Below are positions 12,554 through 34,540 of a stretch of 64,000 nucleotides of DNA, piece after piece. The notes under the pieces were generated by a model that saw only the letters and a list, made by a program, of their open reading frames with translations, did no database searches and had not been told where the DNA came from. The position numbers were made by a program, and so were the translations under genes. Within the stretch, counting starts at the first letter, position 1. Each line of letters begins with the position of its first letter. Origin of the DNA: an uncultured Chloroflexia bacterium (GTDB taxonomy: Bacteria > Chloroflexota > Anaerolineae > Anaerolineales > UBA4823); NCBI GenBank assembly GCA_963774935.1, contig CAVZGO010000007.1:407861-471860 (forward strand), written 5' to 3'.

Positions 12554-12630
12554 GCCCCAGTAGCTCAGTGGATTAGAGCACTTGCTTGCGGAGCAAGGGG
12601 TCGCGTGTTCGAGTCGCGCCTGGGGCACCA
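12554..12630 (+). tRNA. tRNA-Arg, anticodon GCG (CCA encoded)
   Basis: Hand-folded cloverleaf. Acceptor stem gccccag/ctggggc. D arm gctc-agtggatta-gagc. Anticodon arm cttgc-TTGCGGA-gcaag. Variable loop gggtc. T arm gcgtg-ttcgagt-cgcgc. Discriminator A followed by CCA. Confidence 0.85.
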
Positions 12631-12637
12631 CCATCCA

Positions 12638-12675
12638 CCCCTTACCGGTCTTTTACCGTCCGGTGAGGGGTTTTT
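12638..12675 (+). terminator. Intrinsic terminator after the tRNA
   Basis: An 11-bp stem ccccttaccgg / ccggtgagggg (one G.U pair) with an 11-nt loop is followed by ttttt (12671-12675). Confidence 0.6.
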
Positions 12676-12688
12676 CCTGAGTGTAACT

Positions 12689-15690: not shown

Positions 15691-17355
15691 TCATGGTTCC
15701 TGATACCCATTCCGAAGGAAACTTCCCCTCCCCGTTCCCCAGAGGATCCGCGCCTGGCTCGTGCCCGGCAGGTCGTAGACCACCGCGCCTGAATGCGCCG
15801 TCAGCAGCACCACCTCCAGGTCGGCGTCCAGGTCGATGTTCGCCAGCGTCGGCGCCGCCAGCGCCCCGTTCCAGTCTCCCGGGTATGCCGCTGGCAGCTC
15901 GACCTCCGCCAGCCGCCTGCCCAGGCTGTCCAGAATGTGCAGCTTGCCCGTCTTCTGGCTGCCCTTCTGCGTCCACGACGCGAAGATGACTTCCGCATCG
16001 CCATCGTTGTCCAGGTCTGCCACCACCGGCTCCGAGGCGAAGCGCAGGATGCCCTCCGCCGGGTCCGTCACCGCGTAAGGCCAGTCGCCTTTCTCCGTCT
16101 TATCCAGCCAGTAAGCGTGCAACCGCCCATCGTAAGACGGGAACAGGATTTCCAGCCTCCCGTCGCCGTCCAGGTCAGCCGGCACCGGGTTGGGCACCGC
16201 TGTCTCGATCAGGTTGTAATCCTCGCTCAAAGGCGCTGCCGCCCCATCCGGCGTGGGGAGGACCGTCCAATCGTAGCCCGACGCCGCCCAGCGGCTGCGG
16301 TCGGCGTTGAAGATAAATACCATCTGGTACAGGCTGGTGTACGGGTCTGTGCCGCAGTTGTACACATTCCCCACCACCACGATCTCCCGGGCGCCGTTCC
16401 CATCCAGGTCCACCAGGACCGGCGCTGAATCAGCAAAGTTCGGGCGGTGCTCGCTCCCGCAGTTGGCATAGCCGCGCAGGTCTACTGCGTGGTCCACGTG
16501 CACCCCCACCTGGCTCCAGACTTTTGGGCCAACTGGATTAAAGCCGTTGTACATCGCGTTTGCCGGGAGCTGGTTCCCACTCCGGTCCAGTGCCGTGATG
16601 TAGTGTGTGTCCGTCGGACCGATAATCTCCTTGAAGCCGTCCCCATCCAGGTCGCCCACCGCCGCGTTCTGGTTGTACATCCCCCAGCCGTAGCCCGGGT
16701 CGCCGTCCCGCCGCGCCGGCCAACCCGCCCGCACCGAGCCATCCGGCTCGTAAACGCTGAGCTGCTTCGTCGCCCCGCCGCTTGCCCTGCCCACGATGAT
16801 CTCCACCAGCCCGTCATCCTCCAGGTCCGCCAGCGCCAGGGTGCGGATCTCCCCCGCCCCAAACGGGCTGCGCTGCCAGTCGATCCCACCCGCACTGTTG
16901 TAAACCGTCAGCAGGTCCCCGCCGCGCCCGGCAACGATCTCCAGGTCGCCGTCGCCCTCCAGGTCTCCCACCCCGATCCCCGGCCAGACCCGGCTGCTGT
17001 TCTCCGCCCGCCATTCCAAAGCCCCCGTCTCCCCATCCAGCGCTGCCAGGTCATACGTCCCTGCCAGCACCTCCATCTGCGGGTCGCCGTCGATGTTAGC
17101 CACAGCCGGGGAAGAGTACCAGCCCGTCTCGCACCACGAGGCGTAGCACCCGCCGCGCTGCCATTTCAGCACCGGCGGTTGGAGACCGGTGAAGATCATC
17201 GGCAGGTAGATCGTCGAGCCGGAAGTGGGGGATAACGGTATGGCCTGGGCCGAGGGAAATATGGGACCTGGTAGAGCTGCAATTAGAATCGCCAGGAACA
17301 TTGATCGCAGTACAAACCGCAGAGCAGATTTTTTATGGAGGTAGGAAGCTACCAT
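15691..17355 (-). CDS. Secreted FG-GAP/VCBS-repeat protein (beta-propeller type)
   Basis: The protein has a signal peptide (MFLAILIAALPGPIFPSAQA). It carries repeated D-x-D-G-D Ca-binding/FG-GAP motifs: ANIDGDPQMEVL, GDLEGDGDLEIV, ADLEDDGLVEII, GDLDGDGFKEII, VDLDGNGAREIV, ADLDGDGRLEIL and ADLDNDGDAEVI. Confidence 0.78.
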   Translation of the reverse strand: MVASYLHKKSALRFVLRSMFLAILIAALPGPIFPSAQAIPLSPTSGSTIYLPMIFTGLQPPVLKWQRGGCYASWCETGWYSSPAVANIDGDPQMEVLAGTYDLAALDGETGALEWRAENSSRVWPGIGVGDLEGDGDLEIVAGRGGDLLTVYNSAGGIDWQRSPFGAGEIRTLALADLEDDGLVEIIVGRASGGATKQLSVYEPDGSVRAGWPARRDGDPGYGWGMYNQNAAVGDLDGDGFKEIIGPTDTHYITALDRSGNQLPANAMYNGFNPVGPKVWSQVGVHVDHAVDLRGYANCGSEHRPNFADSAPVLVDLDGNGAREIVVVGNVYNCGTDPYTSLYQMVFIFNADRSRWAASGYDWTVLPTPDGAAAPLSEDYNLIETAVPNPVPADLDGDGRLEILFPSYDGRLHAYWLDKTEKGDWPYAVTDPAEGILRFASEPVVADLDNDGDAEVIFASWTQKGSQKTGKLHILDSLGRRLAEVELPAAYPGDWNGALAAPTLANIDLDADLEVVLLTAHSGAVVYDLPGTSQARILWGTGRGSFLRNGYQEP

Positions 17356-17380
17356 TAAGAAATTCCTGATAAATTGTTGT

Positions 17381-18068
17381 TGTCAATCTAAAAACCGACC
17401 ACCTTTGGGCGACCGTTCGAAATGAAAGACGAGAACAGGCATCTCTGGTAAGGTCCGGTTCCTGTCTCGGTTTGGGGGTAAGGTAATTGTAATCCAAGAC
17501 GTTGGCCTCCATCAGGCTTTTTGCCCTTCCAACATGCCCTGGCGAAAGAGGAACTACTCGCCCACCAGCTCTAGAATATGAGCATGGTGTGTAAGGATTG
17601 AATTCCAGCGGCAAGTCGGCTTCCCTTCGTCTGCGTTTTCGCCGCTCTTGGCTGACAAAATTGTGCACCGAACCGGCACTCCCCGGGTAGCCTTCGCTGC
17701 CTTGAATTTCGTACATGCGATAGGCGGTATAGCGCTGCTTGAGATGTAGTTGATCGCTCTCGTCCAGCAATTCAAGTATTCGTTGTTTGTAAGGTCCAAG
17801 TACCAGCTCAGCTCGTGGCTGTTTGAGTGTGTACGGCTCTGGCGCCGGATTCTGTGATTGCTTTTCGGATCGTCTCTCGATCAAAGCCTAACTTCCGATG
17901 GATGGCTCTCCTCCGTGTTTGTCGGGGAAGAATGCCACAATTCTCAAAGATTAACCAGTTACGTTTCGCTTTTCAGATTCCGATGGATGTCAGCCACCGA
18001 TTCCGATCTACCACCAAAAAGTGGCCGACATCGTCCGGAATCGCTGGCCGGTTTCTTCCGGATTCACA
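17381..18068 (-). mobile_element. Internally deleted, frameshifted IS21-family element (istA N-terminus fused to istB C-terminal tail) with imperfect terminal inverted repeats
   Basis: The reverse strand carries an IstA HTH (RRAIHRKLGFDRETIRKAI) and then LGPYKQRILELL...GYPGSAGSVHNFVSQERR. This jumps to an IstB-type tail (LTHHAHILELVGE-). The ends are 17381 TGTCAATCTAAAAACCGACCAC and, on the reverse complement at 18068, TGTGAATCCGGAAGAAACCGGCCAG. Several ATCGGAAT/TCCGGA sub-terminal repeats are present. Confidence 0.55.
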
Positions 18069-18442
18069 TGCACCAAAATCAATTTCTTTGGATTTATATC
18101 TTTTTTTAATAACAATTGTTTTGTGAAGATAATATTTTCAGATGTGTTGGTAGATTTATTTTCTATCAATATAGACTCTTCAGGGACACCAGAGTGAATT
18201 GCTACTTTGGCAAATTTATCTGCTTCTGGCTCAGACAATTTATTACGGGTTATTCGACCAAACCCGACTAAGAAGGCTATAATCGGTGCCTATTTGTCAA
18301 TAAATAGCTCTGTTCCATACTGAGCGGTTCTTATATCACTGTTTCCTAACACTAGTATACAATCTGATAGCTGAAGAGGCTGGCTTAGTTTTAAGTAATT
18401 CCATAACTTCTTTGCTAAATTATCAACAAAGTGATTATTCAT
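18008..18442 (-). pseudogene. DUF218 (YdcF/SanA/ElyC-like) gene remnant with an in-frame TAG and a truncated, decayed 3' end
   Basis: The reverse strand from the ATG at 18442 reads MNNHFVDNLAKKLWNYLKLSQPLQLSDCILVLGNSDIRTAQYGTELFIDK*APIIAFLVGFGRITRNKLSEPEADKFAKVAIHSGVPEESILIENKSTNTSENIIFTKQLL... The SEAE...GVP...E..S.NT.EN motif is the DUF218 pattern. The stop is at 18290-18292, and AT-rich coding ends at the IS end near 18068. Confidence 0.65.
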
Positions 18443-18454
18443 ATAACGAATCCT

Positions 18455-20497
18455 CTATTCTTGATTAGGGATTGACTCTAACAAAGCTCTGGTATACGCT
18501 GCTGCTGCGATTGATGCGTACTTTTGCCAATTATCTCCCTTGTTTTTATCACAATAATCACATATTCCTCGAATAACCAGATATCCTACTTGATGATTCC
18601 AAGTGGCATCAGCTATACCTGAACCTTCCATTTCCACTGCTTTAACATTAAATTGATTTCTTAATTCATCTCTTTTAAGAGGGTTTTTAAGAAGTTTGTT
18701 TGCCGATGCAATTGAACCAATAAAAATTCTTGGTTCCCCTTCAACTCGATCTAGATCGTATGGATGAGTAATAACTAGATTATTATTTATTGAGTTTACG
18801 AGAATGTCACTCTCACCTGAAGGGCGAGTAACTCCAAGTTGCTTTGTAGCATAATCGATATAATTTATCCAAGGTCGCTTGCCTTCTAACTCGGCGGCTT
18901 TTAACAATCGAACTCCTTCCAGCAAGAATGCGCTAGGAGGTCTAGGGGGATAACGAAATATTGTCTCGGTTATTGTTTCTTTGTCGAAGTCATATTGAAT
19001 AACACCTCTCTGATCAGATACAACAATGTCCCCCAAACGTACATGTTCAGAAGGTTTTTCGGGATAGGGGATGCCGCCTGCAATTCCGACCATTATTATC
19101 GAGTTTACAGAAGGGAAGTGCTCGAGAAGCATTGTGGCTCTACTAGCTGCTATGTTGTTTCCCATATCCGCAAGAGCTAAAATTACTTGATGAACTGAAC
19201 CCTCTTTCGAAGGAATTCCTCCTTGAAGATACCTTCTCCCTGCACCACGTCCCGGTACTTCTCTGTTTACTGGGCCATCAATAAGGACTTTAACTGCTAT
19301 ATATTCCTCTGGAAGAGCTGTTATTATTCCGACTGTGGGAATCAAGAGTGATTTATTAAAATTTCTTGATTCAGAGGGTGATCCATAAATATTAAGTTTT
19401 TTACTTGAGGCTGATTCTGCCATTTCAATAAATAATCCAATTCTTCCGTCTACAACTGCTTGCTTAATTAGCAATCTAATATAATCAGGATTTGAAGGTA
19501 CTATTGATTTATATTCAAATCCAAACCTGGATGCTAATTGTTCTAAAGTGTATACATCGAGCCTACTAGCAATTTGTTTCGCTTTATTTAATAATTCTCC
19601 TTCGGATGTATTAGATATATCTGTTCTAGACGCAAGTTCACCATCGGCGTGTTTATTAATTACATTGTATAAGGAAGAAAGTTGATGTGTAAATCCATAC
19701 TCTTGTGCAAGTGTTTCCGCCTTTGACGCAGCTTCCAAGCCGCCCGTAACTTCATCAGACGATAGTAGTAGATCCGCTAAGAGAATGTTAGTCTGTGTTA
19801 TTCGAAATTTATCTGTCTGAGGAATCACTTTTAAAGTGTCTGACACCAGGTTTTGAGCAATGTCGGTTTTCCCTTTTGTAAATTCAACAATAGCAAGTTT
19901 CTGTAAACTATATCCATAATCACCAGGCGTGACTCGACTTTCTAGTAATGAAAGACTTTCTCTTATTTTTTGCTCAGCTGAGGTGAAGTTCTCTAATTTC
20001 GTCAAGACAGTGCCAATTCTCAATAAAACTCTCCCTCTCAATATTTTGAGATCACCAATACTGTCTATTATTGTTAGAGCATCGTTATAATTTCTGAATG
20101 CCTGATCATAATTTTTTCTCATTTCGAAACACGCACCCAAATACCAACTTAAAATGGCCAATTTGTCTTTTTCGCCAAGCTGATTCCAAATAAATTGTGC
20201 TTTCTTATAAAGGGAATATGCCCCACCGGTTCCAGATATAATGCCCTGGTCTCGTCGGATACTTCCTAATTCAGTTAGGGCGCGGGCTTGTAACCTTAAA
20301 GCAGATGTGTGCTGTGTAAGTCCTTGTAACCCGATAATAATGTCCTGAAAAATATCTACTGCTCTTTCAAATTCAAACCGACTAGATAGCTGTTTAGCAG
20401 ACTCGAATGCGAATTCAAGATCCTGTACTCGAGAATTAAATACATTTTCTTGCTTAGCAACTTTATATAATTCTGTTAGCAAAGAGGATGGATCCAC
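18455..20497 (-). CDS. 680-aa TPR-repeat protein with a C-terminal nucleoside phosphorylase/nucleosidase-fold (PNP_UDP_1/MTAN-like) domain
   Basis: The N-terminal ~290 aa are helical-repeat/TPR-like (e.g. AYSLYKKAQFIWNQLGEKDKLAILSWYLGACFEMRKNYDQAFRNYNDAL). The C-terminal ~300 aa read VGIITALPEEYIAV...MGNNIAASRATMLL...IIMVGIAGGIP...LGDIVVSD...VEMEGSGIADA...VIRGICDYCD, the phosphorylase-superfamily pattern. Confidence 0.8.
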   Translation of the reverse strand: MDPSSLLTELYKVAKQENVFNSRVQDLEFAFESAKQLSSRFEFERAVDIFQDIIIGLQGLTQHTSALRLQARALTELGSIRRDQGIISGTGGAYSLYKKAQFIWNQLGEKDKLAILSWYLGACFEMRKNYDQAFRNYNDALTIIDSIGDLKILRGRVLLRIGTVLTKLENFTSAEQKIRESLSLLESRVTPGDYGYSLQKLAIVEFTKGKTDIAQNLVSDTLKVIPQTDKFRITQTNILLADLLLSSDEVTGGLEAASKAETLAQEYGFTHQLSSLYNVINKHADGELASRTDISNTSEGELLNKAKQIASRLDVYTLEQLASRFGFEYKSIVPSNPDYIRLLIKQAVVDGRIGLFIEMAESASSKKLNIYGSPSESRNFNKSLLIPTVGIITALPEEYIAVKVLIDGPVNREVPGRGAGRRYLQGGIPSKEGSVHQVILALADMGNNIAASRATMLLEHFPSVNSIIMVGIAGGIPYPEKPSEHVRLGDIVVSDQRGVIQYDFDKETITETIFRYPPRPPSAFLLEGVRLLKAAELEGKRPWINYIDYATKQLGVTRPSGESDILVNSINNNLVITHPYDLDRVEGEPRIFIGSIASANKLLKNPLKRDELRNQFNVKAVEMEGSGIADATWNHQVGYLVIRGICDYCDKNKGDNWQKYASIAAAAYTRALLESIPNQE

Positions 20498-20503
20498 AAC
20501 GTC

Positions 20504-21037
20504 TCATCCTTTAGTGTTAAGCGTATTCTGAATATTAGTGATAGCTTCATCCAATAATGCAGTTAGTTGTTGAGTTTCATCACGAAGCACACGTTTGAGA
20601 ATATTAACTTTTTTATCTAACAAACCAAAATCAGAAGCTGGGTTAAAAAACATATTCCATAAAGATTGAGCAATTTGATTTACGAAACCAATTTGCTCAT
20701 AAACGGTAATTAATCGTTTATGTAATAAATAATCGGATAAGCCGAACTGTACTCCTTCTTGTGCAGCTTGCCATGCGTCATCTGATATTAACGGATAGCG
20801 AATATCGTCTTCTGTTGACTCAATTGCGAGGAATTTTTCAATTTCGTTTTTATTCTTTTGCAACTCATCAAGTATGGTCCTTAATACCGTATTAGCACGT
20901 TCCTCTTGTTCCCTAAGCTTTATACGTCGGTCAAGCCAGAGACCGGTCGGTATGGCTAGGATTGCACCTATTAAAGCACCTACCATATTAGATAGGACAT
21001 TAATCCAAAATTCATTACCCAAATTAAGGAACCCCAT
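20504..21037 (-). CDS. 177-aa protein with one N-terminal TM helix and a long helical/coiled-coil domain; unknown function
   Basis: The TM helix is VLSNMVGALIGAILAIPTGLWL, followed by charged helical sequence (DRRIKLREQEERANTVLRTILDELQKNKNEIEKFL...). The gene sits 6 nt upstream of the TPR-PNP gene. Confidence 0.6.
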   Translation of the reverse strand: MGFLNLGNEFWINVLSNMVGALIGAILAIPTGLWLDRRIKLREQEERANTVLRTILDELQKNKNEIEKFLAIESTEDDIRYPLISDDAWQAAQEGVQFGLSDYLLHKRLITVYEQIGFVNQIAQSLWNMFFNPASDFGLLDKKVNILKRVLRDETQQLTALLDEAITNIQNTLNTKG

Positions 21038-21065
21038 ATTAGTACGATGATAGATAAAAATAGTT

Positions 21066-22399
21066 TTATACCCGTTGAATTACAGCACCAACTCCATTAA
21101 GCCTCTCATCAAAGGATTCATAACCGCGTTCTATTTGCTCAATATTTAACACCTCTGTTATATCCGAAGCTACAAGTCCCGCAATTACTAGAGCTGCCCC
21201 AGCCCGCACATCACTCGCACTAACAACGGTACCATTTAGTTTTGTTGGCCCATAAATTTTAACGGCATGGAATAATCCGGCAGTACTTTCATAAGGAAAA
21301 TTGTATATTTTAGGATCTACATCAGGATTGAAATACTCTATTTTGGCTTCCATTTTTTTTAATTCATCCAAATGAGTAAATCTTTGTGAAAATATTGTCT
21401 CGTGAAAAACACTCACACCATGCATTTGTGTCATTAAAACCTCTAACATTGGTACCCAATCCGTCGAAAATCCCGGATATGGACGACTAGTAACAGATAA
21501 CCCCGTTAATTTAAAATCGGAGCATTGAACCTCTAGAATTTGTGATTCGCCCTCATGACCTAGTTCAAATCTGACTCCTTTCTGGCTTAATATTGCCAAG
21601 AGGGGAAGTAGATGTTCTTCATTGACACCTTTGAGTGTTATTGGACCATGACCCAATGCCCCAGCAATTACAAATGTGGCAGCATCGTTTCTGTCGGGCA
21701 TGATTGTAATGTCAACATTAACAGGACTATATTCACCGGATACCCCCTGCACCTCAACAATCCCATTTTCGCCTCGCTTCACATTTGCACCCGCTTGTTG
21801 CATAAACAATATAAAATTATCAATTTCAGGTTCTAAAGCGGAATTTTGAATTATGGTCGTACCCTTTGCACATATTGAAGCAAGTATTGCATTTACTGTC
21901 CCATTTACTGTGGTTTTGGTGAATGTAATGATGCCCCCAGTTAATCCTTTTGATGTTATTTCGTAATACTCATCCTTTTCTATAACGGTTGCCCCTAGTC
22001 GTCTAAAAGCATCTAAGTGCCATGTCACTTTTCTCCTACCGATCTGATCGCCGCCAGGATGCCAAATTCTAGCACTACCAAACCTGCTCAATAATGCCCC
22101 CGCAAAAAGAAAAGAACCGGTAGATTTTGCTGTGACTTCAGGGGGAATTTCTTGAGGTTCAATATTAGTGGTGTCGATTAATAAAGTGTGTTCATCTAGT
22201 GAATTAATCTTTGCGCCTAAAAATGAAAGTATTTCAACCAATGCAGCCGAATCGTTTATTTTTGGAACATTTCTAAGTAAATACTCACCAGGAAACACAA
22301 TAGTCGCTGGAATAATTTTTTGTGCGGCATTCTTAGCGCCTTGAATTTTGACCTCCCTTTTAGAATAGGGCTATGATGGATTACAAACTTTGTAGTCAT
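21066..22399 (-). CDS. MurA-type enolpyruvyl transferase (EPSP-synthase fold) with Asp at the catalytic-Cys position; N-terminus split by an apparent 1-nt deletion at the C-run 22355-22357
   Basis: ATG 22399 (SD aaggaagga) gives MTTKFVIHHSPILKG. Adding one G continues this as EVKIQGAKNAAQKIIPATIVFPGEYLLRNVPKINDS... Other motifs are PGGDQIGRRKVTWHLDAF (E. coli MurA has PGGCAIGARPVDLH), GFSTDW and DVRAGAALVIAGL. Confidence 0.8.
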
Positions 22400-22416
22400 G
22401 GTGTATCCTTCCTTTT

Positions 22417-22956
22417 TCAATTAAATAGCCCGAGTTGTCTCACCCATAAAAGCAAAGTGATGCTAGGTAAGTGCGAAATTTCACCCTTCTCAATCATATC
22501 AAAAGCAGTTGCAATATTAAATTTGCCGATTTGTATTTTTTCTGTTGGATCAGGCTTTGGGTTACCTATAGAAAAATCTTTAACGACATAAAACCATATT
22601 TTACTTAGTAGTGTGTCTGTTCCCCAATCTGCAGATCCAATCGATATCCATGAAGTACTTGTAAAGCCAGTTTCTTCTAATAATTCTCTCTTAGCCGCAT
22701 CGATTGGTAATTCATCTTGGTCTATTCCCCCTCCAATAACTTCCCATGTTTCTTTTGCAATTGCGTAACGATATTGTTTTACTAACATTATGTTTCCACT
22801 GTGAGTTATAGGCAATATCATTACGCCTGGTTTCATTTCTAATACTAAATGGGAGGTTGTGTTTCCGTTATGCTCACACAACTTATCCTCACGAAGAGTT
22901 AACCAGGGCGATTTATAAATATTAGAACTTGATAATATTTTTGTATTGCTCACCAT
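22417..22956 (-). CDS. Nudix hydrolase, ADP-ribose pyrophosphatase (NudF)-like
   Basis: The Nudix box is GGGIDQDELPIDAAKRELLEETGF, preceded by LVKQYRYAIAKETWEV, the NudF-type pattern. Confidence 0.8.
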   Translation of the reverse strand: MVSNTKILSSSNIYKSPWLTLREDKLCEHNGNTTSHLVLEMKPGVMILPITHSGNIMLVKQYRYAIAKETWEVIGGGIDQDELPIDAAKRELLEETGFTSTSWISIGSADWGTDTLLSKIWFYVVKDFSIGNPKPDPTEKIQIGKFNIATAFDMIEKGEISHLPSITLLLWVRQLGLFN

Positions 22957-22979
22957 AATATCCCTTTGAATATTCTTTT

Positions 22980-23645
22980 CTAGATTGATTCGCCTAAAAC
23001 ACCCTTTACCACAACAAATGCCTCATAATACCTATTCTTTACATGATTGTCCGGATGTGCTTGGATAGCCCACCATTTTGCGCGGGTTGATACTACCTCC
23101 GGGTGCATGTATGATTTTCCTTTTTCAGAAAAATGTAGATTAATAGCCTGCCTCTTTATTTCAATAAAATTCGTGATATCTACAAAAATATTTGGGGCAA
23201 AATCCCCATTTTGGGTTGGTGGTTCTGAATATAGAATCCAAAATATATTGGAGTTGCGTCTTCCTGCATTTAAAACCGAAGAAGCAACAACAACATGATC
23301 TTGATGACCGTATCCCAATACTTGGGGATAATGTGTTATCAGAATAGAAGCAGAAGTCAGGGCAATATAATTTTCAACTATCGACACAATTTCATGGTTA
23401 TATAATAGCTCTCCATCAGGGAGATTCTCATTGTAAATTTGAAAGCCCCCAAGCTTAGCAGCTGCTTGGGACTCAATATGACGCTGACGAGATGATGTTG
23501 TTCTACTTTTTTCTCCATTTGTTAATTCTAGAACGGTTACTTTCCATCCAGCGTGACTAAGGCGTACAAGCGTACCAAAACATGTTAATTCATCATCATC
23601 GGGATGAGCAAAAACTGCTAACACATTAGGAGTATTATTTATCAT
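22980..23645 (-). CDS. PIG-L/LmbE-family N-acetylglucosaminyl deacetylase
   Basis: VLAVFAHPDDDELTCFGTL, the AHPDDE motif, is followed by ...HQDHVVV... (second metal-binding His/Asp motif). Confidence 0.8.
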   Translation of the reverse strand: MINNTPNVLAVFAHPDDDELTCFGTLVRLSHAGWKVTVLELTNGEKSRTTSSRQRHIESQAAAKLGGFQIYNENLPDGELLYNHEIVSIVENYIALTSASILITHYPQVLGYGHQDHVVVASSVLNAGRRNSNIFWILYSEPPTQNGDFAPNIFVDITNFIEIKRQAINLHFSEKGKSYMHPEVVSTRAKWWAIQAHPDNHVKNRYYEAFVVVKGVLGESI

Positions 23646-23651
23646 AGAAAA

Positions 23652-24635
23652 TCACCTATTGAATTTCACACCTGGTTTTATGCCATATTTTTTTGAAAAT
23701 GATACACTATCCATTTCTTCATCATCACCAAGTTGGAGTCGTTTTATTATTATAGATTTTGTAAGACAAGCAACCAATAACCCATTATCATTAATGTCAA
23801 TAATACTCCCTGGTTCATAATTTGTTACTTGCTCACCCATGGCGGCTTTCCAAATTATTACTTTTTCCCCGTTCCAAAATGTAAACGCACCAGGATATGG
23901 ATGGGTAAGTGCTCTTATCCAATTGTATTGATCTAAACTCTCCCGATACCAATCAATTACTCCATCTTCTGGCCTTCTTTTTTCCCAATATGTAACCTTT
24001 GTTGGATCTTGTGGAATACGAGGGGCAGTTCTATTTGCTAACAATGGTAGACTATCTTTGACTAACTGGTAATGGAGGATTGCTATTTTTTTATAAATAC
24101 TCGATGCATCATCATTGATCTCAATCATGTATTCATTCTGGGCTATCATGTCCCCTGCATCTGCCTCCTCTTCTAGATAAAACATAGTCACACCGCTTTT
24201 AGTAAAACCCTTGATAATTGTCCAGGGGATAGGTGCTCTACCCCTTCCTATCGGTAGTAAGGTGGGATGAATTCCTATGCAGCCATGAGTGTTATCATGG
24301 CGTTTAGAACTATTGTATTTGTTCTTTGGAATGTCTAGTAACTCACTAGGTGCCAATTCGGACCAGCCGATAATAAAGATAAAATCTGGTGATAGTTTCT
24401 TTATTTGATTGTATACGTCTATTGTCTTAATACTTGAAATCTTGAATAAGGGTGCTTTAGCTTGATTAGCTAAAGAATCGAAAGATGTGTATCCCGATGT
24501 TTTTTCGGCTTTTTCCTCTGATAAGCTAAAAACTGCAATTAATTTAGCCTCTTGACTCTTAAACACGTCTAAATCTATAAGTCCATTTAATGCGAATTGA
24601 CCTAACTCAACACCGCTTATGAATACAATATTCAT
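23652..24635 (-). CDS. Formyltransferase of the Fmt/ArnA type (N- and C-terminal formyltransferase domains)
   Basis: HGCIGIHPTLLPIGRGRAPIPWTIIKG aligns with the Fmt segment [20 protein letters not shown]. ...EEADAGDMI... holds the catalytic Asp region. The C-terminal part IDWYRESLDQYNWIRALTHPYPGAFTF is Fmt_C-like. Confidence 0.8.
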   Translation of the reverse strand: MNIVFISGVELGQFALNGLIDLDVFKSQEAKLIAVFSLSEEKAEKTSGYTSFDSLANQAKAPLFKISSIKTIDVYNQIKKLSPDFIFIIGWSELAPSELLDIPKNKYNSSKRHDNTHGCIGIHPTLLPIGRGRAPIPWTIIKGFTKSGVTMFYLEEEADAGDMIAQNEYMIEINDDASSIYKKIAILHYQLVKDSLPLLANRTAPRIPQDPTKVTYWEKRRPEDGVIDWYRESLDQYNWIRALTHPYPGAFTFWNGEKVIIWKAAMGEQVTNYEPGSIIDINDNGLLVACLTKSIIIKRLQLGDDEEMDSVSFSKKYGIKPGVKFNR

Positions 24636-25062
24636 CTTGGCTTCCCCTCTCGAAATATGAAATATGTGAGAGATTTTCTACTATTGTACAACCAATTACA
24701 TAACCAGATGTGCCTTTTGATAACTCTTGTAATCAAAACAGACACTCAGAATAAAACTCGGTTCTCATACCGATCCTGAAAACCCACTTAAGATTAAAAA
24801 AGGGGAAATGATAAGGATCATGGTCGTATTTAACTAGCCCGTATAACCTTGTAGTGAATATAAATTTTCTTCTTTATTGCGATCATCGAAATATATGACC
24901 TATGACCCGCTAACGATACCTTCCGCAAATTTTTCTGATTATATCGTAACTATCATCTTCGGTGGTCTAATTTGGGTAACAGCTATGTCTGGTGACTAAA
25001 AATATATTGTCAAATAATAGCGAGGGCATTGCCAAAGTGACTAAATGGATCATCCGGTTAGT

Positions 25063-25750
25063 TCAGGATACATTTGGACATAATCCGACACCGCAGCTAC
25101 GCACAAGTTTGTGACGACGGCGGCGGCCCCGGAAAAAGGGATGACGATGTTGGTACCAGTATTGGGTAGCTTCTCGAACAGCCTGACATACTTCTTCCCA
25201 GGTCTCAAAGCGTTTGCCTTTCAATGCCAGCGAACGCAGAATTTTCCACCACGGCTCGATCAGGTTGAGGTAAGCCGCATATTTGGGTTGAAAAACGAAC
25301 TGCCACCGGGGATGGTGCAAACTGAACAACAACACATCGGTCGCTCGGTGCGCCGGCAAGTTGTCCAAAATGGCATTGATCTGCAAATCGGCTGGCAGCT
25401 ATTGGTCTACTTTCTCCAGAAAATCCACAAAGTTCTTCGCCGAACGGCTCACATACGGTTCGGTAAAAACTTCTGCATCGCTTGGTTTGAGGGCTCCAAA
25501 GGTGTAACCTTTTCCACGTCGACCATAATCAATCTCTTGTTTGGCTCTTTTCTGTCAACCAGAAAATAAGAAAGGGTCTTCTGTCAAAGCCAGTTCGCCA
25601 ACGCTGGCTTTTCGTGCAACGGCTCGAAATCCACGTTGGTGAGATCAATATCATCACGCAGGTGCTGGAACAAATGCAAAAACCGGGGCATAGCGCACGG
25701 GGAAACCGGAGTAAGCCGCACAGCTTAACCGGAGCATGGCTCACACACAA
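25063..25750 (-). pseudogene. IS630-family (DDE_3, Tc1/mariner-like) transposase remnant with an in-frame stop and frameshifts
   Basis: The reverse strand reads ...DYGRRGKGYTFGALKPSDAEVFTEPYVSRSAKNFVDFLEKVDQ*LPADLQINAILDNLPAHRATDV...FQPKYAAYLNLIEPWWKILRS, the DDE_3 core. The upstream part is only recognisable in other frames (PFLIFWLTE). Confidence 0.7.
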
Positions 25751-27303: not shown

Positions 27304-29042
27304 TTAAGCAACTCACCTAACTCTTTGATCTCCTCCTTCATCACCTGCTCCAGCCGCACCAGCCGCTCCAGCGTTACCTCCGGTTTCTCATAGTACACCT
27401 CGTCCGCTTCCACCTGCCGGTAGCGGCTGGCGGACAGGTCGTATTTATTCGCCTTGACCTGCGCCTTGCTCACCCAGAACTGCCGGCTGAGCTGCGCTAT
27501 CTCTGCCTGCAGCGGCGCGATCCGCCCCTCCAGCGCCACCAGCCGCTCCTGCGCCTCCGCCAGCTCCCCTTGCCCAGAATGGGGAGCGGCAACCTGAGCG
27601 TAGCTCAGGTCGGTGAGGGACTTAGGCCTGATCGCCGCCTCAAACCTCAGCCGGTTGATCTCTGCCTGCAGTCCCAACCGCTGCGCCTTGAGCGGCGCCG
27701 CCTGCGCTTGAAGCTCCTCCAGGCGCACCTGCCGCGCCTGCTGGAAGGCGGGCTCGCCGCGCTTCTGCCAGCAGGTCAGCACGTCCGGGATGTCGTTCTC
27801 TGCTACCGGCACGCGCTTGTCGTCCAGCGAGTAGCCGTCGTGCGCCATGTCGTAGAACCAAATCTCGCCCGTCTTTGCCCCGCGCGTGAACAGCAGCACC
27901 GCCGTGGATACCCCTGCATAGGGCCGGAATACCCCCGAAGGCATCGAGATCACCCCGTCCAGCCGGTTTTCTTCGAGTATCTTCTTGCGCAGCGCCACGT
28001 GCGCCTTACTGGAGCCAAACAGCACCCCGTCCGGCACGATCACCGCGCAGCGCCCGCCCATATCCAGGGCGCGCAGGATCAGGTGCACGAACAGCAGCTC
28101 GGTCTTGGTCGTGTCCCCCGGCAGCGTCGGGCTGGCGTCGCCCTTGTCCACCGCCCCCTTGAAGGGCGGGTTCATCAGGATCACGTCGTACTCGCGCTCG
28201 TCGGTGAACGCCTTGGAAAGCGTGTCCATGTAAAAGAACTGCGGTGAGTCGATCCCGTGCAGCATCAGGTTCATCGAGCCAATCCGCAGCATCGTCATCC
28301 CCGAATCGTTGTCGAAGCCGCGCAGGAACCTCTCGGATTTCATGAACTCCCGCTCGCGCTCATTCAGCCGGTCGCCGATCAGGTGATGCGGTAAGCCCTC
28401 TTCGTCGTAAGCCAGGATTTCTACCGAAGTGCCTTTTTCCAGCACGTACTGGTAGGCGTTCACCAGAAAGCCCGCCGTTCCGCCTGCCAGGTCGCCGATC
28501 CGCTCGGTGGGCTTGGGCGCTGCCATCTGCACCATCATGCGGATGATATGCCGCGGCGTGCGGAACTGCCCGTTGCGCCCCGCCGTGTTCAGCTTGCTCA
28601 GCAGGTATTCGTACAGGTCGCCCTGCACGTCCTGGTTCTGCTGGCTGATCTCCATCTGGTCGATCAGCTTGCAGGCTTCGATCAGCAGGCTCGCCTTGCT
28701 GATCTTGCACTCGGCGTTTGCCATGTAGCGCTCGAAAGAGCTGCCCTGTTCGCCCAGCGTGCGGAACCACGGGAAGATCGTCTCCTTCAGATGGCGCAGC
28801 GCCTGGCCCGCTTCGTACTTCGTCCAGTTCTGCCAGCGCATCTCAGCCGGGATTCTGCCCGGGTACTCCGCTTCGCGCCGCCGCGCCTGGCGCTCCAGCG
28901 CATTTTCGCGGTCGTCCAGGCGCTTCAAGAACAGCAAATACGAAAACTGCTCGATCGCGTCCAGCGGGTTGGTCAGCCCGCCCGACCAGAACTTGTCCCA
29001 CAGCGCGTCCACTTGCGATTTGAGTTTCGGATCAGTCAGCAT
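27300..29042 (-). CDS. hsdM: Type I restriction-modification DNA methyltransferase subunit HsdM (N6-adenine), with a long C-terminal coiled-coil extension
   Basis: The HsdM_N part is LWDKFWSGGLTNPLDAIEQFSYLLFLKRLD. The AdoMet motif is DLAGGTAGFL and the catalytic motif is VILMNPPFKG. Confidence 0.93.
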   Translation of the reverse strand: MLTDPKLKSQVDALWDKFWSGGLTNPLDAIEQFSYLLFLKRLDDRENALERQARRREAEYPGRIPAEMRWQNWTKYEAGQALRHLKETIFPWFRTLGEQGSSFERYMANAECKISKASLLIEACKLIDQMEISQQNQDVQGDLYEYLLSKLNTAGRNGQFRTPRHIIRMMVQMAAPKPTERIGDLAGGTAGFLVNAYQYVLEKGTSVEILAYDEEGLPHHLIGDRLNEREREFMKSERFLRGFDNDSGMTMLRIGSMNLMLHGIDSPQFFYMDTLSKAFTDEREYDVILMNPPFKGAVDKGDASPTLPGDTTKTELLFVHLILRALDMGGRCAVIVPDGVLFGSSKAHVALRKKILEENRLDGVISMPSGVFRPYAGVSTAVLLFTRGAKTGEIWFYDMAHDGYSLDDKRVPVAENDIPDVLTCWQKRGEPAFQQARQVRLEELQAQAAPLKAQRLGLQAEINRLRFEAAIRPKSLTDLSYAQVAAPHSGQGELAEAQERLVALEGRIAPLQAEIAQLSRQFWVSKAQVKANKYDLSASRYRQVEADEVYYEKPEVTLERLVRLEQVMKEEIKELGELLK

Positions 29043-29045
29043 AGC

Positions 29046-29429
29046 TTATCGATTGGCTTTCTTTTCGATATATTGCACGCCCTCAAGACCTTTGAAGTGC
29101 GCGTCCTGGGTCCACAGCGTGGCCTTATAAGCCCTGGCGCTCGCCAGGATGATGCTGTCTGCCATTGCCAATTTTAATTCGGTCGATAGCAAGGCCGCCT
29201 CAATGGCAATTTGCCTGTCTAAATCGATGACGTTTCCCACCACCATGCTGCCGGCAGCGTTCAAGGCTCGTGCTTCGCCAAATTCCGTTAGCACTCGCTT
29301 GAATACTTCGTACAGGCAGATGGTCGGCGTCACCAGGCTGTCCGCCTCCTGAATTGGCGCAGCAAAGAAATCGGCATTGACCCCGTCCGTGAGATATTCC
29401 AACCACCCAGATGAGTCAACAACGTTCAT
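29046..29429 (-). CDS. vapC: PIN-domain ribonuclease toxin VapC
   Basis: MNVVDSSGWLEYL... starts with the first acidic PIN residue, and LAMADSIILASA / TQDAHF carry the later ones. The protein is 127 aa. It overlaps vapB by 4 nt, and its stop lies 3 nt before the hsdM ATG. Confidence 0.85.
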   Translation of the reverse strand: MNVVDSSGWLEYLTDGVNADFFAAPIQEADSLVTPTICLYEVFKRVLTEFGEARALNAAGSMVVGNVIDLDRQIAIEAALLSTELKLAMADSIILASARAYKATLWTQDAHFKGLEGVQYIEKKANR

Positions 29430-29641
29430 TCGCGTTCCTCATCTTCTTCTTCACGGATACCTTCGATGTTCAATCCCTTCAGCATCCCACGTGCCTCTTC
29501 GATAGGCGGCACGATTACCACCCGTAAAGTCCCCTGATAAGGGATAAAGGCCAGCTTTTGCCCGGGCTTTAAGTTGAATTTTTCCCGCACTTCGCGCGGT
29601 ATAACCACCTGGAACTTGGATGAAATAGTTACTGCTTCCAT
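29426..29641 (-). CDS. vapB: AbrB/SpoVT-family antitoxin VapB
   Basis: MEAVTISSKFQVVIPREVREKFNLKPGQKLAFIP is a swapped-hairpin AbrB/MazE DNA-binding fold. The acidic C-terminal tail is EGIREEEDEERE. Confidence 0.85.
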   Translation of the reverse strand: MEAVTISSKFQVVIPREVREKFNLKPGQKLAFIPYQGTLRVVIVPPIEEARGMLKGLNIEGIREEEDEERE

Positions 29642-29679
29642 CGCTTTACGTCTCCTTATCGAACAGATAATGTAAGACG

Positions 29680-29708
29680 ATTATATCACCTTGTTAATTA
29701 ATTGTCTT
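29680..29708 (-). promoter_or_regulatory. Candidate sigma70-type promoter for vapBC(-hsdMS), with the TTAATTAA palindrome in the spacer
   Basis: The reverse strand reads AAGACA-17 nt-TATAAT (-35 at 29708-29703, -10 at 29685-29680). It lies in the AT-rich 114-nt gap between hsdR and vapB, and the spacer contains ttaattaa. Confidence 0.4.
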
Positions 29709-29755
29709 TTGATTCGCTAATGCATAAAATTGTTTCCACCGCTTGGAAGGGTTTG

Positions 29756-34521: not shown

Positions 34522-34540
34522 ATGGGTTTTGGTTATTTGT

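What the first reader, a model, noticed from the sequence alone, without database searches (positions are those of the whole stretch)
18455..24635. AT-rich six-gene operon joining a TPR-PNP-nucleosidase protein to a MurA / Nudix / LmbE / formyltransferase enzyme set: candidate undescribed nucleotide-based conflict (defence) system
What the sequence shows:
- Six co-directional minus-strand genes run 24635->18455.
- Their gaps are only 6, 23, 17, 28 and 6 nt. A decayed seventh (DUF218) gene follows after 12 nt.
- A ~430-nt non-coding leader lies upstream.
- The block is far more AT-rich than the host: 16/60 G+C in 19381-19440 versus 34/60 in 31021-31080 by my hand count.
- It is bracketed by IS debris and lies directly beside a type I R-M/AbiE/VapBC operon.

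Motif-based calls, in gene order:
- Fmt/ArnA-type formyltransferase.
- AHPDDE LmbE/PIG-L deacetylase.
- NudF-type Nudix hydrolase.
- MurA-type enolpyruvyl transferase.
- A single-TM coiled-coil protein.
- A 680-aa TPR + phosphorylase/nucleosidase-fold protein.

Established knowledge:
- PNP/MTAN-fold domains act as ATP-nucleosidase immune effectors (Cap17 in CBASS, DtcC in Detocs).
- The MurA homologues NikO/PolA enolpyruvylate UMP in nucleoside-antibiotic pathways.
- LmbE and Fmt/ArnA enzymes deacetylate and formylate amino sugars.

Inference: I know of no named defence system or sugar pathway with this gene set. Two readings fit:
- (a) The four enzymes build or modify a nucleotide/nucleotide-sugar (a chemical defence or a signal), and the TPR-PNP and TM proteins act as sensor and effectors.
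- (b) The block is a mobile cell-envelope glycan-modification cassette, which could alter a phage receptor.
Basis: partly seen in the sequence, partly recalled or inferred. Interest (0 to 1): 0.9.

Follow-up and report, generated by a model that had tools for sequence, protein, structure and literature searches.

The report
Rare MurA-linked TPR/ATP-nucleosidase conflict cassette
A horizontally acquired six-gene operon joins cell-wall-precursor-type enzymes to a membrane-tethered TPR protein carrying an immune-type ATP-destroying domain; the same set recurs in a few unrelated metagenomes with the killing module swapped, so it looks like an undescribed, very rare defence-type system, although its function is untested.

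Summary
Six co-directional minus-strand genes lie at 24635-18455, followed by a decayed DUF218 gene. They form a 37.5% GC island in a 54% GC background. IS fragments flank the island, and a type I R-M/VapBC/AbiE operon lies next to it. All six motif calls hold.

New findings:
1. The same six genes recur in the same order in an unrelated metagenome contig (L008). Partial or rearranged versions occur in five more lineages.
2. The invariant hub is the small TM protein plus the TPR module. A MurA-type enzyme is linked in 6 of 7 lineages.
3. The Fmt-like/PIG-L/Nudix genes are an accessory trio. Their wider family normally sits in amino-sugar and nonulosonic-acid loci.
4. The output is swapped between loci: a fused PNP here, an EAD7 adaptor in L008, and an adjacent RES gene in L009.
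5. The Fmt-like enzyme lacks the canonical catalytic Asn, which is Gly.
6. The MurA gene carries a 1-nt frameshift here. This is probably an assembly error.

No defence library or paper describes this gene set. The best reading is a conflict system that monitors the peptidoglycan-precursor node and kills by ATP depletion. The defence function and the trigger are inferred, not shown.

The parts
24636..25062 (-). about 430-nt non-coding leader upstream of the operon
   Evidence: Only short ORFs of at most 40 aa. No Rfam family at E<=1. Promoter-like hits are not above the shuffled expectation.
23652..24635 (-). Fmt/ArnA-like two-domain protein (327 aa) with Gly in place of the catalytic Asn
   Evidence: Formyl_trans_N 1.9e-21 and Formyl_trans_C 1.6e-23. 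ArnA model 1.1e-53, below its cutoff. Best PDB match is the ArnA formyltransferase domain, 2e-38, with ArnA N102 aligned to Gly. Gly occupies this position in 79 of 81 related loci. Orthologues are 61% (L008) and 55% (L009) identical.
22980..23645 (-). PIG-L/LmbE-family deacetylase (221 aa)
   Evidence: PIG-L 8.4e-21. BshB1 model 9e-20, below its cutoff. The AHPDDDE and HQDH motifs are visible in the translation. 58% and 54% identical to the L008 and L009 proteins.
22417..22956 (-). Nudix hydrolase of the NudE/YffH (NDP-X) type (179 aa)
   Evidence: NUDIX 8.8e-12. NudE model 1.3e-15 and YffH/AdpP model 3e-6, both below cutoff. The Nudix box GGGIDQDELPIDAAKRELLEETG is in the translation. 43% identical to the L008 protein.
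21066..22399 (-). MurA-family enolpyruvyl transferase (444 aa after repair), frameshifted in this assembly at the GGG run 22357-22355
   Evidence: Frameshift read directly. L001 has GGGG. The repaired protein scores 396.7 bits on the MurA subfamily model (cutoff 297) and 388.2 on the equivalog (cutoff 392.7). PDB MurA 1e-70 against NikO 1e-24; Asp at the Cys115 position; about 19-aa insertion. 65% identical to the L008 protein.
20504..21037 (-). Small single-TM protein with a helical-bundle C-terminal domain (177 aa); hub component, no known family
   Evidence: No Pfam, NCBIfam or PADLOC family. AF2 pLDDT 88.6, all-helical. No structural match, best Foldseek E 0.4. Orthologues are always next to the TPR gene. 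7 representatives at E<=1e-30 among 1.84 billion.
18455..20497 (-). TPR module (aa 1-~290), about 90-aa linker, then an immune-clade PNP_UDP_1 nucleosidase domain (aa ~388-680)
   Evidence: PNP_UDP_1 1.2e-18 and TPR_12 1.2e-10. PADLOC CBASS 'Effector PN-superfamily' 3.7e-22. The PNP domain is 60-70% identical to REC-, TIR-, NB-ARC-, kinase-, HEAT- and EAD-fused proteins. The TPR module has only about 4 relatives among 5.8 billion proteins. The linker's similarity to EAD7 is not significant.
18008..18442 (-). DUF218/YdcF-family pseudogene, with an in-frame TAG and a 3' truncation at the island boundary
   Evidence: DUF218 4e-9. The TAG is shared with L001. 31% identical to YdcF genes that also directly follow TPR homologues on Streptomyces plasmids.
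17333..17884 (-). IS21-family transposase fragment marking the low-coordinate island boundary
   Evidence: NF033546 transpos_IS21 2e-6, partial.
25063..25386 (-). DDE_3 transposase fragment marking the high-coordinate island boundary
   Evidence: PF13358 DDE_3 7.5e-9, C-terminal part only.

Best explanation
The block is a horizontally acquired, very rare conflict (defence-type) cassette. It is built around a two-protein hub: a small membrane-anchored helical protein and a cytoplasmic TPR sensor/adaptor.

The hub is genetically tied to enzymes of the UDP-GlcNAc/peptidoglycan-precursor node. A MurA-type enzyme is nearly always present. An Fmt-like/PIG-L/Nudix trio or a DUF218 gene is sometimes present. 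The hub is also tied to interchangeable cell-killing outputs.

In this window the output is fused to the TPR module. It is a PNP domain of the Cap17/DtcC immune type, which in characterised members cleaves ATP and dATP into adenine and ribose triphosphate.

Most likely mechanism (inferred):
1. The TPR module, held at the membrane by the TM partner, reads the state of the MurA-type enzyme or of its nucleotide-sugar products.
2. That node is perturbed, for example by a phage 'protein antibiotic' that blocks a step in lipid II supply, or by a precursor imbalance.
3. The perturbation relieves autoinhibition of the PNP domain.
4. ATP is depleted and the cell arrests (abortive infection).

In relatives the same hub ends in an EAD7 adaptor, which would recruit effectors in trans, or is followed by a RES gene (an NAD+-degrading toxin type).

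The Fmt-like/PIG-L/Nudix trio is an accessory borrowed from amino-sugar pathways. It probably remodels the N-acyl group of a UDP-HexNAc-type substrate and hydrolyses it. Its role is unknown; it may make the ligand, make a resistant precursor, or be a further guarded target.

Shown here: gene content, conservation, linkage, output swapping and family assignments.
Inferred: defence function, trigger, protein contacts and substrates.
For: Conserved linkage
- TM+TPR are adjacent in 7 independent lineages: window/L001, L008, L009, L011/12, L013, L015 and L096-99. Identity is 36-59% (TM) and 35-52% (TPR). Three different gene orders occur.
- A MurA-type gene is adjacent in 6 of 7 lineages. These include a second MurA lineage that is 33% identical and keeps Cys115, in L096 next to murD.
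- The full six-gene order is repeated in L008.

Output swapping
- PNP is fused in the window.
- EAD7 is above Pfam's gathering score in L008 (37.2 against 32) and sub-threshold in L013 and L096.
- A RES gene lies downstream in L009 (35.4 bits against 23.2).

PNP is of the immune type
- PADLOC CBASS effector model 3.7e-22.
- The nearest relatives are REC-PNP (the DtcC architecture) and TIR-, NB-ARC- and EAD-fused proteins at 60-70% identity.
- Housekeeping MTAN models score below cutoff and reach only about 1e-9 in the PDB, with the catalytic Glu and Asp retained.
- ATP-nucleosidase activity and abortive infection are shown for this clade in 10.1101/2023.01.24.525353.
- EAD7 is described as an effector-recruiting adaptor and PNPase as an effector in PMC7159879 and PMC8195603.

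Pathway theme
- The MurA-like proteins are near-canonical MurA.
- DUF218 proteins SanA and ElyC control peptidoglycan/ECA precursor flux (PMC12176290).
- The TPR-DUF218 adjacency recurs in Streptomyces.
- Phage lysis proteins inhibit three steps of lipid II supply: Qbeta A2 inhibits MurA, phiX174 E inhibits MraY and phage M Lys inhibits MurJ (10.1101/2023.10.16.562596).

Context
- The cassette is a low-GC, IS-flanked island beside type I R-M, VapBC and AbiE.
Against: - There is no experimental evidence of defence.
- No NTPase, cyclase or other recognised signalling core is present.
- The hub is absent from annotated phages, plasmids and viral contigs. It is extremely rare, so the statistics are thin.
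- L096-99 shows TM-TPR-MurA beside murD with no visible effector and no defence neighbours. That looks more like cell-wall housekeeping or regulation.
- L009 lacks a linked MurA.
- The window's own linker is not significantly EAD7-like.
- No cognate EAD7-effector gene was seen next to L008 or L011 before the contigs end.
- TPR homologues in Streptomyces carry an HTH, so they are ordinary regulators.
- MurA and DUF218 are damaged in this assembly, so this copy may be decaying.
Confidence: 0.45

Rival explanations
1. Cell-wall precursor regulation or modification cassette. The TM and TPR proteins are adaptors that control a dedicated MurA paralogue, in the way LapB, ReoM/ReoY or CwlM control committed-step enzymes. 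Fmt-like, PIG-L and Nudix make an N-acyl-variant UDP-HexNAc/MurNAc precursor, for example to resist lysozyme or endolysin or to alter a phage receptor. The PNP, EAD7 and RES parts are secondary add-ons.
For: - The MurA-like proteins are near-canonical and keep their catalytic residues.
- L096-99 is just TM-TPR-MurA beside a bona fide murD.
- DUF218 proteins regulate peptidoglycan/ECA precursor flux.
- The wider Fmt-like/PIG-L family sits in amino-sugar and nonulosonic-acid loci.
- MurA is a known regulated hub (PMC7286690 and PMC12723410).
- Streptomyces TPR homologues are HTH regulators next to YdcF/WbqC.
Against: - It does not explain why the TPR partner carries an immune-clade ATP-nucleosidase domain or an EAD7 adaptor, or sits next to RES.
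- None of the hub-linked loci has a glycosyltransferase, flippase, MurB, NeuB or aminotransferase.
- The cassette is a foreign island inside a defence island.
Confidence: 0.25
2. Reader's reading (a). The four enzymes synthesise a modified nucleotide or nucleotide-sugar that is itself the antiviral agent or a second messenger. The TPR-PNP and TM proteins act as its receptor and effector.
For: - Four enzymes acting on nucleotide-sugar-type substrates are co-transcribed with a sensor-effector protein.
- The Fmt-like/PIG-L/Nudix trio also occurs beside a dGTPase that matches the PADLOC defence model, in L020.
- TPR homologues next to small-molecule enzymes in Streptomyces suggest ligand sensing.
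Against: - The enzyme complement is not constant around the conserved hub. L096 has MurA only, and L009 has Fmt/PIG-L plus an unrelated Nudix and no MurA. No single product can be common to all loci.
- MurA is MurA-like and not NikO-like.
- The Fmt-like enzyme lacks the catalytic Asn.
- Known signal-based systems use one infection-activated synthase, not a constitutive pathway (my own knowledge).
Confidence: 0.15
3. Decaying mosaic. The island is mobile-element cargo in which an orphan TPR-PNP defence gene happens to lie beside a sugar-modification operon. There is no functional connection, and this copy is no longer functional.
For: - There is IS debris on both sides, a DUF218 pseudogene and a frameshifted MurA.
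- The PNP domain is a promiscuously shuffled module.
Against: - The same genes recur together in unrelated contigs with 36-65% identity and rearranged orders. Chance juxtaposition does not predict this.
- The MurA frameshift is absent from the sister assembly.
Confidence: 0.05

Closest known systems
Cap17/DtcC-clade PNP 'ATP nucleosidase' effectors (CBASS, Detocs, Avs, pAgo, DRT8; Rousset et al., 10.1101/2023.01.24.525353)
   Same: - The C-terminal domain has the PNP_UDP_1 fold and matches the PADLOC CBASS effector model.
- Its closest relatives have the DtcC-like REC-PNP architecture and other immune fusions.
- It is fused to a putative sensor domain.
   Different: - There is no CD-NTase/SAVED, no histidine kinase or receiver, no STAND NTPase and no Argonaute.
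- The partner is a rare TPR module linked to a TM protein and to MurA-type enzymes.
- Activity has not been tested.
EAD-coupled conflict systems of multicellular prokaryotes (Kaur, Burroughs, Iyer, Aravind; PMC7159879, PMC8195603)
   Same: - Relatives of the TPR protein end in EAD7, described there as an effector-recruiting adaptor.
- PNPase is among the listed effectors.
- The effector or adaptor part varies between closely related loci.
   Different: - Those systems are built on NTPase cores (STAND, MoxR-vWA, GTPases). None is present here.
- Neither paper mentions formyltransferase, PIG-L/LmbE or MurA.
- The window protein's own linker is not demonstrably an EAD.
Housekeeping MurA and its regulatory adaptors (ReoM/ReoY-ClpCP, CwlM; by analogy LapB for LpxC)
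   Same: - A MurA-family enzyme with conserved catalytic residues is tied to small non-enzymatic partner proteins.
- One partner is membrane-anchored and one is a TPR protein.
   Different: - The partners have no sequence or fold relation to ReoM, ReoY or CwlM.
- The TPR partner carries death-effector or adaptor domains.
- The MurA here has Asp at position 115 and a clade-specific insertion of about 19 aa, and sits on a foreign island.
Amino-sugar N-acyl remodelling pairs in nonulosonic-acid and O-antigen loci (PIG-L deacetylase plus ArnA/Fmt-type formyltransferase)
   Same: - The Fmt-like and PIG-L genes belong to a widespread adjacent pair, found in about 50 of 80 related loci.
- That pair is usually accompanied by NeuB-type and/or DegT-type genes.
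   Different: - The hub-linked loci have none of those pathway genes, and no glycosyltransferase or flippase.
- Almost the whole clade, including this protein, has Gly instead of the catalytic Asn.
HTH-TPR regulators next to YdcF/DUF218 on Streptomyces plasmids
   Same: - They share a TPR module with the LGxxRRDQG and terminal HQL motifs (about 30% identity).
- They are directly followed by a YdcF/DUF218 gene, as in the window.
   Different: - Their output domain is an N-terminal HTH.
- They have no TM partner, MurA, PNP or EAD7.

Membership tests
Immune (Cap17/DtcC-clade) PNP ATP nucleosidase | PNP_UDP_1 fold | tested here: met
   PF01048 1.2e-18, aa 388-658.
Immune (Cap17/DtcC-clade) PNP ATP nucleosidase | Groups with immune-system PNP domains rather than housekeeping MtnN/DeoD/Udp | tested here: met
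   PADLOC CBASS effector model 3.7e-22. The top 120 homologues at 51-70% identity are fused to REC, TIR, SEFIR, NB-ARC, kinase, HEAT or EAD domains. MTAN equivalog scores 90.9 bits against a cutoff of 169. PDB MTANs reach only about 1e-9. No phylogenetic tree was built.
Immune (Cap17/DtcC-clade) PNP ATP nucleosidase | Catalytic acidic residues retained | tested here: met
   The alignment to MTAN shows the VEMEGSG Glu and the CDY Asp aligned with the MTAN catalytic Glu and Asp. The correspondence to DtcC D353 was not aligned directly.
Immune (Cap17/DtcC-clade) PNP ATP nucleosidase | Cleaves ATP/dATP to adenine; toxic when freed | not testable with these tools
   Needs enzymology and expression experiments.
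Detocs | DtcA histidine kinase, DtcB receiver, and a receiver domain on the PNP protein | tested here: not met
   No HisKA, HATPase or Response_reg domain in any of the six proteins.
CBASS | CD-NTase plus a signal-sensing domain on the effector | tested here: not met
   Only the PNP part matches a CBASS model. No cyclase is present.
EAD-coupled NTP-dependent conflict systems (Kaur et al. 2020) | EAD adaptor on a core component | tested here: inconclusive
   L008 orthologue: EAD7 37.2 bits, above the gathering score of 32. L013 scores 22.3 and L096 17.8, both below it. Window linker: 7-bit partial match and hhalign probability 4.9%.
EAD-coupled NTP-dependent conflict systems (Kaur et al. 2020) | NTPase core (STAND, MoxR-vWA or GTPase) | tested here: not met
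   No P-loop or NTPase domain in the operon or in the related loci.
EAD-coupled NTP-dependent conflict systems (Kaur et al. 2020) | Variable effectors on a conserved core | tested here: met
   PNP, EAD7 or an adjacent RES gene on orthologous TPR cores.
MurA (UDP-GlcNAc 1-carboxyvinyltransferase) | Passes curated family models | tested here: inconclusive
   Subfamily NF006873 scores 396.7 against a cutoff of 297 (pass). Equivalog TIGR01072 scores 388.2 against 392.7 (narrow fail).
MurA (UDP-GlcNAc 1-carboxyvinyltransferase) | Catalytic and PEP-binding residues (K22, C115, R120, D305, R397) | tested here: inconclusive
   K22/N23, R120, D305, R371 and R397 are retained. Position 115 is Asp, as in naturally fosfomycin-resistant MurAs (my own knowledge). 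R91 is Thr and G164 is Asn, and there is an insertion of about 19 aa.
MurA (UDP-GlcNAc 1-carboxyvinyltransferase) | Intact reading frame | tested here: not met
   There is a 1-nt frameshift at 22357-22355 in the window. The frame is restored in L001.
Fmt/ArnA-type N-formyltransferase | Formyl_trans_N plus Formyl_trans_C domains | tested here: met
   E-values 1.9e-21 and 1.6e-23.
Fmt/ArnA-type N-formyltransferase | Catalytic Asn-His-Asp triad | tested here: not met
   His and Asp are present. Asn (ArnA N102) is replaced by Gly in GCIGIHPTLLP.
PIG-L/LmbE deacetylase | PIG-L domain with AHPDD(D/E) and HxxH metal/catalytic motifs | tested here: met
   PF02585 8.4e-21. The motifs are read in the translation.
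Nudix hydrolase | Nudix box GX5EX7REUXEEXGU | tested here: met
   PF00293 8.8e-12. The box is read in the translation.
Glycan (O-antigen/capsule/nonulosonic-acid) biosynthesis locus | Glycosyltransferases, flippase/polymerase, NeuB/aminotransferase genes in the cluster | tested here: not met
   None are present in the window island or in L008 and L009. They are present around the more distant Fmt-like/PIG-L pairs.

The most novel reading that the evidence does not exclude
This is a new kind of abortive-infection system that guards the first committed step of peptidoglycan synthesis. A dedicated, fosfomycin-insensitive MurA copy acts as bait for phage 'protein antibiotics' such as Qbeta A2-type MurA inhibitors. 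A membrane-tethered TPR adaptor detects the attack. The cell is then shut down by ATP depletion (fused PNP), by NAD+ depletion (RES), or by effectors recruited through EAD7. The Fmt-like/PIG-L/Nudix trio extends surveillance to, or remodels, UDP-HexNAc precursors.
Probability: 0.2. Interest if true: 0.85.

Novelty: new variant of a known kind. Interest (0 to 1): 0.68.

Why it matters
If the cassette is a defence system, it would link immunity to the cell-wall precursor pathway. That pathway is attacked by phage single-gene lysis proteins and by antibiotics, but no described bacterial immune system is known to monitor it.

The cassette would also show that the TPR/EAD/PNP 'sensor-adaptor-effector' logic can operate without an NTPase or cyclase core.

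Independently of the defence question, the work defines three things that can be tested:
- A conserved TM + TPR + MurA triad.
- A large, uncharacterised clade of ArnA/Fmt-like proteins that lack the canonical catalytic Asn and are paired with PIG-L deacetylases.
- A recurrent TPR-DUF218 pairing that may bear on the unknown biochemistry of the SanA/ElyC/YdcF family.

Tried and rejected
- **Genome-collection scans.** The scan with the Fmt-like protein found nothing. The scan with the TM alignment found one false positive, an ABC permease sharing LAIPTGLW.
- **Metagenome scan with the TM alignment.** It found nothing, although L008 is a JGI contig. The collection evidently lacks these contigs.
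- **Viral contigs, plasmids and phages.** The hub was not found.
- **EAD7 in the window's own linker.** An HMM from the orthologous tails gave only 7 bits over half the domain. An HMM from PNP-attached EAD7s gave nothing. hhalign gave 4.9% probability. The idea is rejected as unsupported.
- **Stand-alone PNP_UDP_1 in L002/L003.** It was considered as a link between PNP and Fmt/PIG-L, but it has no detectable similarity to the window PNP domain.
- **Cognate EAD7-effector downstream of L008 and L011.** None is visible before the contig ends.
- **Riboswitch or other known RNA in the leader.** None was found.
- **Host taxonomy.** Cluster members carry no organism names, so the lineage stays unknown.
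- **NikO-like nucleoside-antibiotic chemistry.** It is disfavoured because MurA scores 1e-70 and NikO 1e-24.

Full report
**1. Observation**

The six minus-strand ORFs exist at the stated coordinates. Every family call made from motifs is confirmed:
- Formyl_trans_N and Formyl_trans_C.
- PIG-L.
- NUDIX. The best NCBIfam models are NudE and YffH.
- EPSP_synthase/MurA.
- A protein with no family.
- TPR_12 plus PNP_UDP_1.

The composition step is sharp. The island 18008-25062 is 37.5% GC against 54.2% for the rest of the window.

The island is bounded by an IS21 fragment at 17333-17884 and a DDE_3 fragment at 25063-25386. Next to it lies an hsdS-hsdM-[VapB/VapC]-hsdR-AbiEii-AbiEi block.

The leader 24636-25062 has no long ORF and no Rfam match. 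Promoter-like hits do not exceed the shuffled expectation.

Two corrections apply:
- The MurA gene is interrupted. The frame from ATG 22399 (MTTKFVIHHSPILKG) and the frame carrying EVKIQGAKNAA differ by one missing G in the GGG run at 22357-22355. The window matches an ENA metagenome contig (ERZ25039462 contig_5389, locus L001) at 98.4% with 70 gap openings, mostly in homopolymers. L001 reads GGGG at this site. The frameshift is therefore most likely an assembly error.
- The DUF218 gene at 18442-18008 carries an in-frame TAG that is identical in both assemblies, and it is cut off at the GC boundary. It is genuinely decayed.

**2. The PNP domain is a shuffled immune module**

A search with the 680-aa protein returned hundreds of proteins that are 51-70% identical over the C-terminal ~290 aa only. 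They come from Chloroflexota, Cyanobacteria, Acidobacteriota and Methanosarcina. In them the domain is fused to receiver, TIR, SEFIR, NB-ARC, kinase, HEAT, pentapeptide and EAD domains.

PADLOC matches only this part, to the CBASS 'Effector PN-superfamily' model at 3.7e-22. Housekeeping MTAN models stay below their cutoffs. PDB MTANs align at about 1e-9, with the catalytic Glu and Asp retained.

For this clade, Rousset et al. showed ATP/dATP N-glycosidic cleavage and abortive infection in CBASS (Cap17) and Detocs (DtcC). They also noted fusions with TPRs, Avs, pAgo and DRT8.

**3. The gene set recurs, and the recurrence redefines the unit**

The Fmt-like protein has a tight orthologue group at 45-61% identity. 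Their neighbourhoods are as follows:

| Locus | Gene content |
|---|---|
| L008 | Fmt, PIG-L, Nudix, MurA, unknown, TPR+EAD7. Same order as the window, at 61, 58, 43, 65, 59 and 52% identity. |
| L009 | Nudix (unrelated), Fmt, PIG-L, unknown, TPR, then a RES-domain gene. No MurA. |
| L011/L012 | MurA, TM, TPR. |
| L015 | MurA, TM, TPR. |
| L013 | TPR+EAD7 convergent with TM and MurA. |
| L096-L099 (soil and root) | TM, TPR (weak EAD7), then a second, Cys115-type MurA lineage (33% identical), beside a bona fide murD. No Fmt/PIG-L/Nudix. |

The invariant pair is therefore TM+TPR, found in seven lineages. A MurA-type enzyme accompanies it in six of them. Fmt-like/PIG-L accompanies it in three of the four lineages whose contigs reach far enough.

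The hub is extremely rare:
- The TPR module has four true relatives among 5.8 billion proteins.
- The TM protein has seven representatives at E<=1e-30 among 1.84 billion.

**4. Output swapping**

On orthologous TPR cores the C-terminal or downstream element differs:
- A fused PNP in the window.
- EAD7 in L008 at 37.2 bits, above Pfam's gathering score of 32. L013 (22.3) and L096 (17.8) are sub-threshold.
- A separate RES protein in L009.

Kaur et al. describe EAD7 as an adaptor that recruits effectors, and PNPase as one such effector. Neither of their papers mentions formyltransferase, PIG-L/LmbE or MurA.

The window's own 90-aa linker aligns positionally with the EAD7 tails. The similarity is not significant.

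**5. The enzymes**

- **MurA-like.**
  - The repaired protein passes the MurA subfamily model and misses the equivalog cutoff by 4.5 bits.
  - It is far closer to true MurA (1e-70) than to NikO (1e-24).
  - It keeps K22/N23, R120, D305, R371 and R397, and has Asp at position 115.
  - It differs at R91 (Thr) and G164 (Asn).
  - It has an insertion of about 19 aa that the L008 and L015 sequences share.
- **Fmt-like.** The best structural relative is the ArnA formyltransferase domain (2e-38). ArnA's catalytic N102 aligns with Gly. The same Gly is present in 79 of 81 related loci. One of the two that keep Asn is L007, where the enzyme is fused to a 5-formyl-THF cyclo-ligase inside a NeuB/CMP-transferase/SHMT/FolD glycan locus.
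- **Fmt-like/PIG-L pair.** The two genes are adjacent in about 50 of 80 broader loci. Of the 34 loci of at least 6 kb, 24 carry a NeuB-type and/or DegT-type gene. The hub-linked loci have none of these.
- **Fmt-like/PIG-L/Nudix trio.** It also occurs in L020 after a dGTPase (PADLOC model 2e-50) and a methyltransferase.

**6. The TM protein**

AF2 with 15 homologues gives pLDDT 88.6. The model is one long TM-plus-stalk helix followed by three helices. Foldseek against the PDB finds nothing better than E = 0.4. No Pfam or PADLOC family matches.

Basic residues directly after the TM segment (DRR/DRK) suggest that the C-terminal bundle is cytoplasmic. This is an inference from the positive-inside rule.

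**7. An unexpected extra link**

Weak TPR matches (about 30% identity) occur on seven Streptomyces plasmids. In the copy examined in detail they share the LGxxRRDQG and HQL motifs. In all three copies examined the gene is followed directly by a YdcF/DUF218 gene, and once by WbqC as well. The protein checked also has a weak N-terminal HTH match.

The window's DUF218 remnant is 31% identical to these YdcF proteins. DUF218 proteins SanA and ElyC control peptidoglycan and ECA precursor flux, and probably act as enzymes.

The TPR module thus looks like a sensor with interchangeable outputs (HTH, EAD7 or PNP). It is habitually placed beside enzymes of nucleotide-sugar and cell-wall precursor metabolism.

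**8. Interpretation**

The evidence favours a conflict or defence-type cassette:
- Conserved linkage across rearrangements.
- Swapped death-effector and adaptor outputs.
- An immune-clade PNP domain.
- A foreign island inside a defence island.

The hub appears to read the peptidoglycan-precursor node. MurA is both a tightly regulated hub (PMC7286690, PMC12723410) and a known phage target, since Qbeta A2 inhibits it. I therefore consider a guard-type mechanism the most likely. In it, the TPR/TM hub monitors the MurA-type enzyme or its products and activates ATP depletion. This mechanism is inference.

The main rival is a cell-wall precursor regulation or modification cassette. It is supported chiefly by L096-99 and by the Streptomyces HTH homologues, but it does not explain PNP, EAD7 or RES.

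Chance mosaicism is excluded by the conserved synteny.

**9. Novelty**

No library model or paper searched describes the set. The sensor/adaptor/effector logic and the PNP effector are known. The TM+TPR hub, its linkage to MurA-type, Fmt-like, PIG-L, Nudix and DUF218 enzymes, and the lack of any NTPase or cyclase core are new.

I rate it a new variant of a known kind. It is interesting, but it rests on about seven lineages and no experiment.

Noticed in passing
window 22355-22357 (MurA-like gene): There is a 1-nt frameshift in a GGG run. The sister assembly L001 has GGGG. Both assemblies carry many homopolymer indels, so other 'broken' genes in this window may also be assembly artefacts.
   Followed up: yes
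L100 6572-8359; L101 4710-7225; L102 4572-6358 (Streptomyces plasmids): A TPR protein related to the window's TPR module is directly followed by a YdcF/DUF218 gene in all three plasmids, and by WbqC as well in one. The L100 copy has weak N-terminal HTH matches. This mirrors the TPR-PNP/DUF218 adjacency in the window. Upstream lie 'ATP-binding protein' and small hypothetical genes, which look like WhiJ-type clusters.
   Followed up: partly
L016-L095 and the window Fmt-like gene (23652-24635): There is a large clade of ArnA/Fmt-like proteins with Gly instead of the catalytic Asn (79 of 81 loci). They are usually adjacent to a PIG-L deacetylase and often lie in NeuB/DegT (nonulosonic-acid or amino-sugar) loci. 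Their chemistry may differ from canonical formyl transfer.
   Followed up: partly
L020 776-5705: A co-directional set of dGTPase (PADLOC defence model 2e-50), SAM methyltransferase, Fmt-like, a 447-aa PIG-L fusion and Nudix. This is a second nucleotide-centred context for the Fmt/PIG-L/Nudix trio.
   Followed up: partly
L002 6897-20984 and L003: The second-closest Fmt-like/PIG-L pair (59% and 51% identity) sits in a cluster with a stand-alone, non-immune PNP_UDP_1 gene, GT2, GNAT, a carrier protein, an adenylating enzyme, an Asn-synthase homologue, MaoC and an NRPS module. This looks like a glyco-lipopeptide biosynthetic cluster.
   Followed up: no
L096 11393-12883 (and L098, L099): A bona fide murD (TIGR01087, 260 bits against a cutoff of 212) lies convergent to the TM-TPR-MurA unit. 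That MurA may be the housekeeping copy of its organism.
   Followed up: partly
window 27647-30464 against L001 1-2847: The hsdM/VapBC/hsdR stretch is only about 90% identical between the two assemblies, while the remaining 18.7 kb is 98.4% identical. This may reflect faster divergence or recombination in the R-M region, or locally worse assembly.
   Followed up: no
window 29046-29641: A VapC (PIN) and MazE/AbrB-type antitoxin pair is nested between hsdM and hsdR of the type I R-M operon.
   Followed up: yes
window 34322-36075: Two co-directional ORFs (166 and 418 aa) just beyond AbiEi have no Pfam family. They may be further defence-island cargo.
   Followed up: no
window 12554-12627: This is the only Rfam hit in the window, a tRNA. 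It overlaps the start of a mechanical 313-aa ORF (12548-13489), which is therefore probably mis-started or spurious.
   Followed up: no
one search hit list (P0102, P0107, P0114, P0119): The immune-type PNP domain is about 60% identical between this bacterial protein and Methanosarcina HEAT-repeat proteins. That is unusually high conservation and implies inter-domain transfer of the effector module.
   Followed up: no
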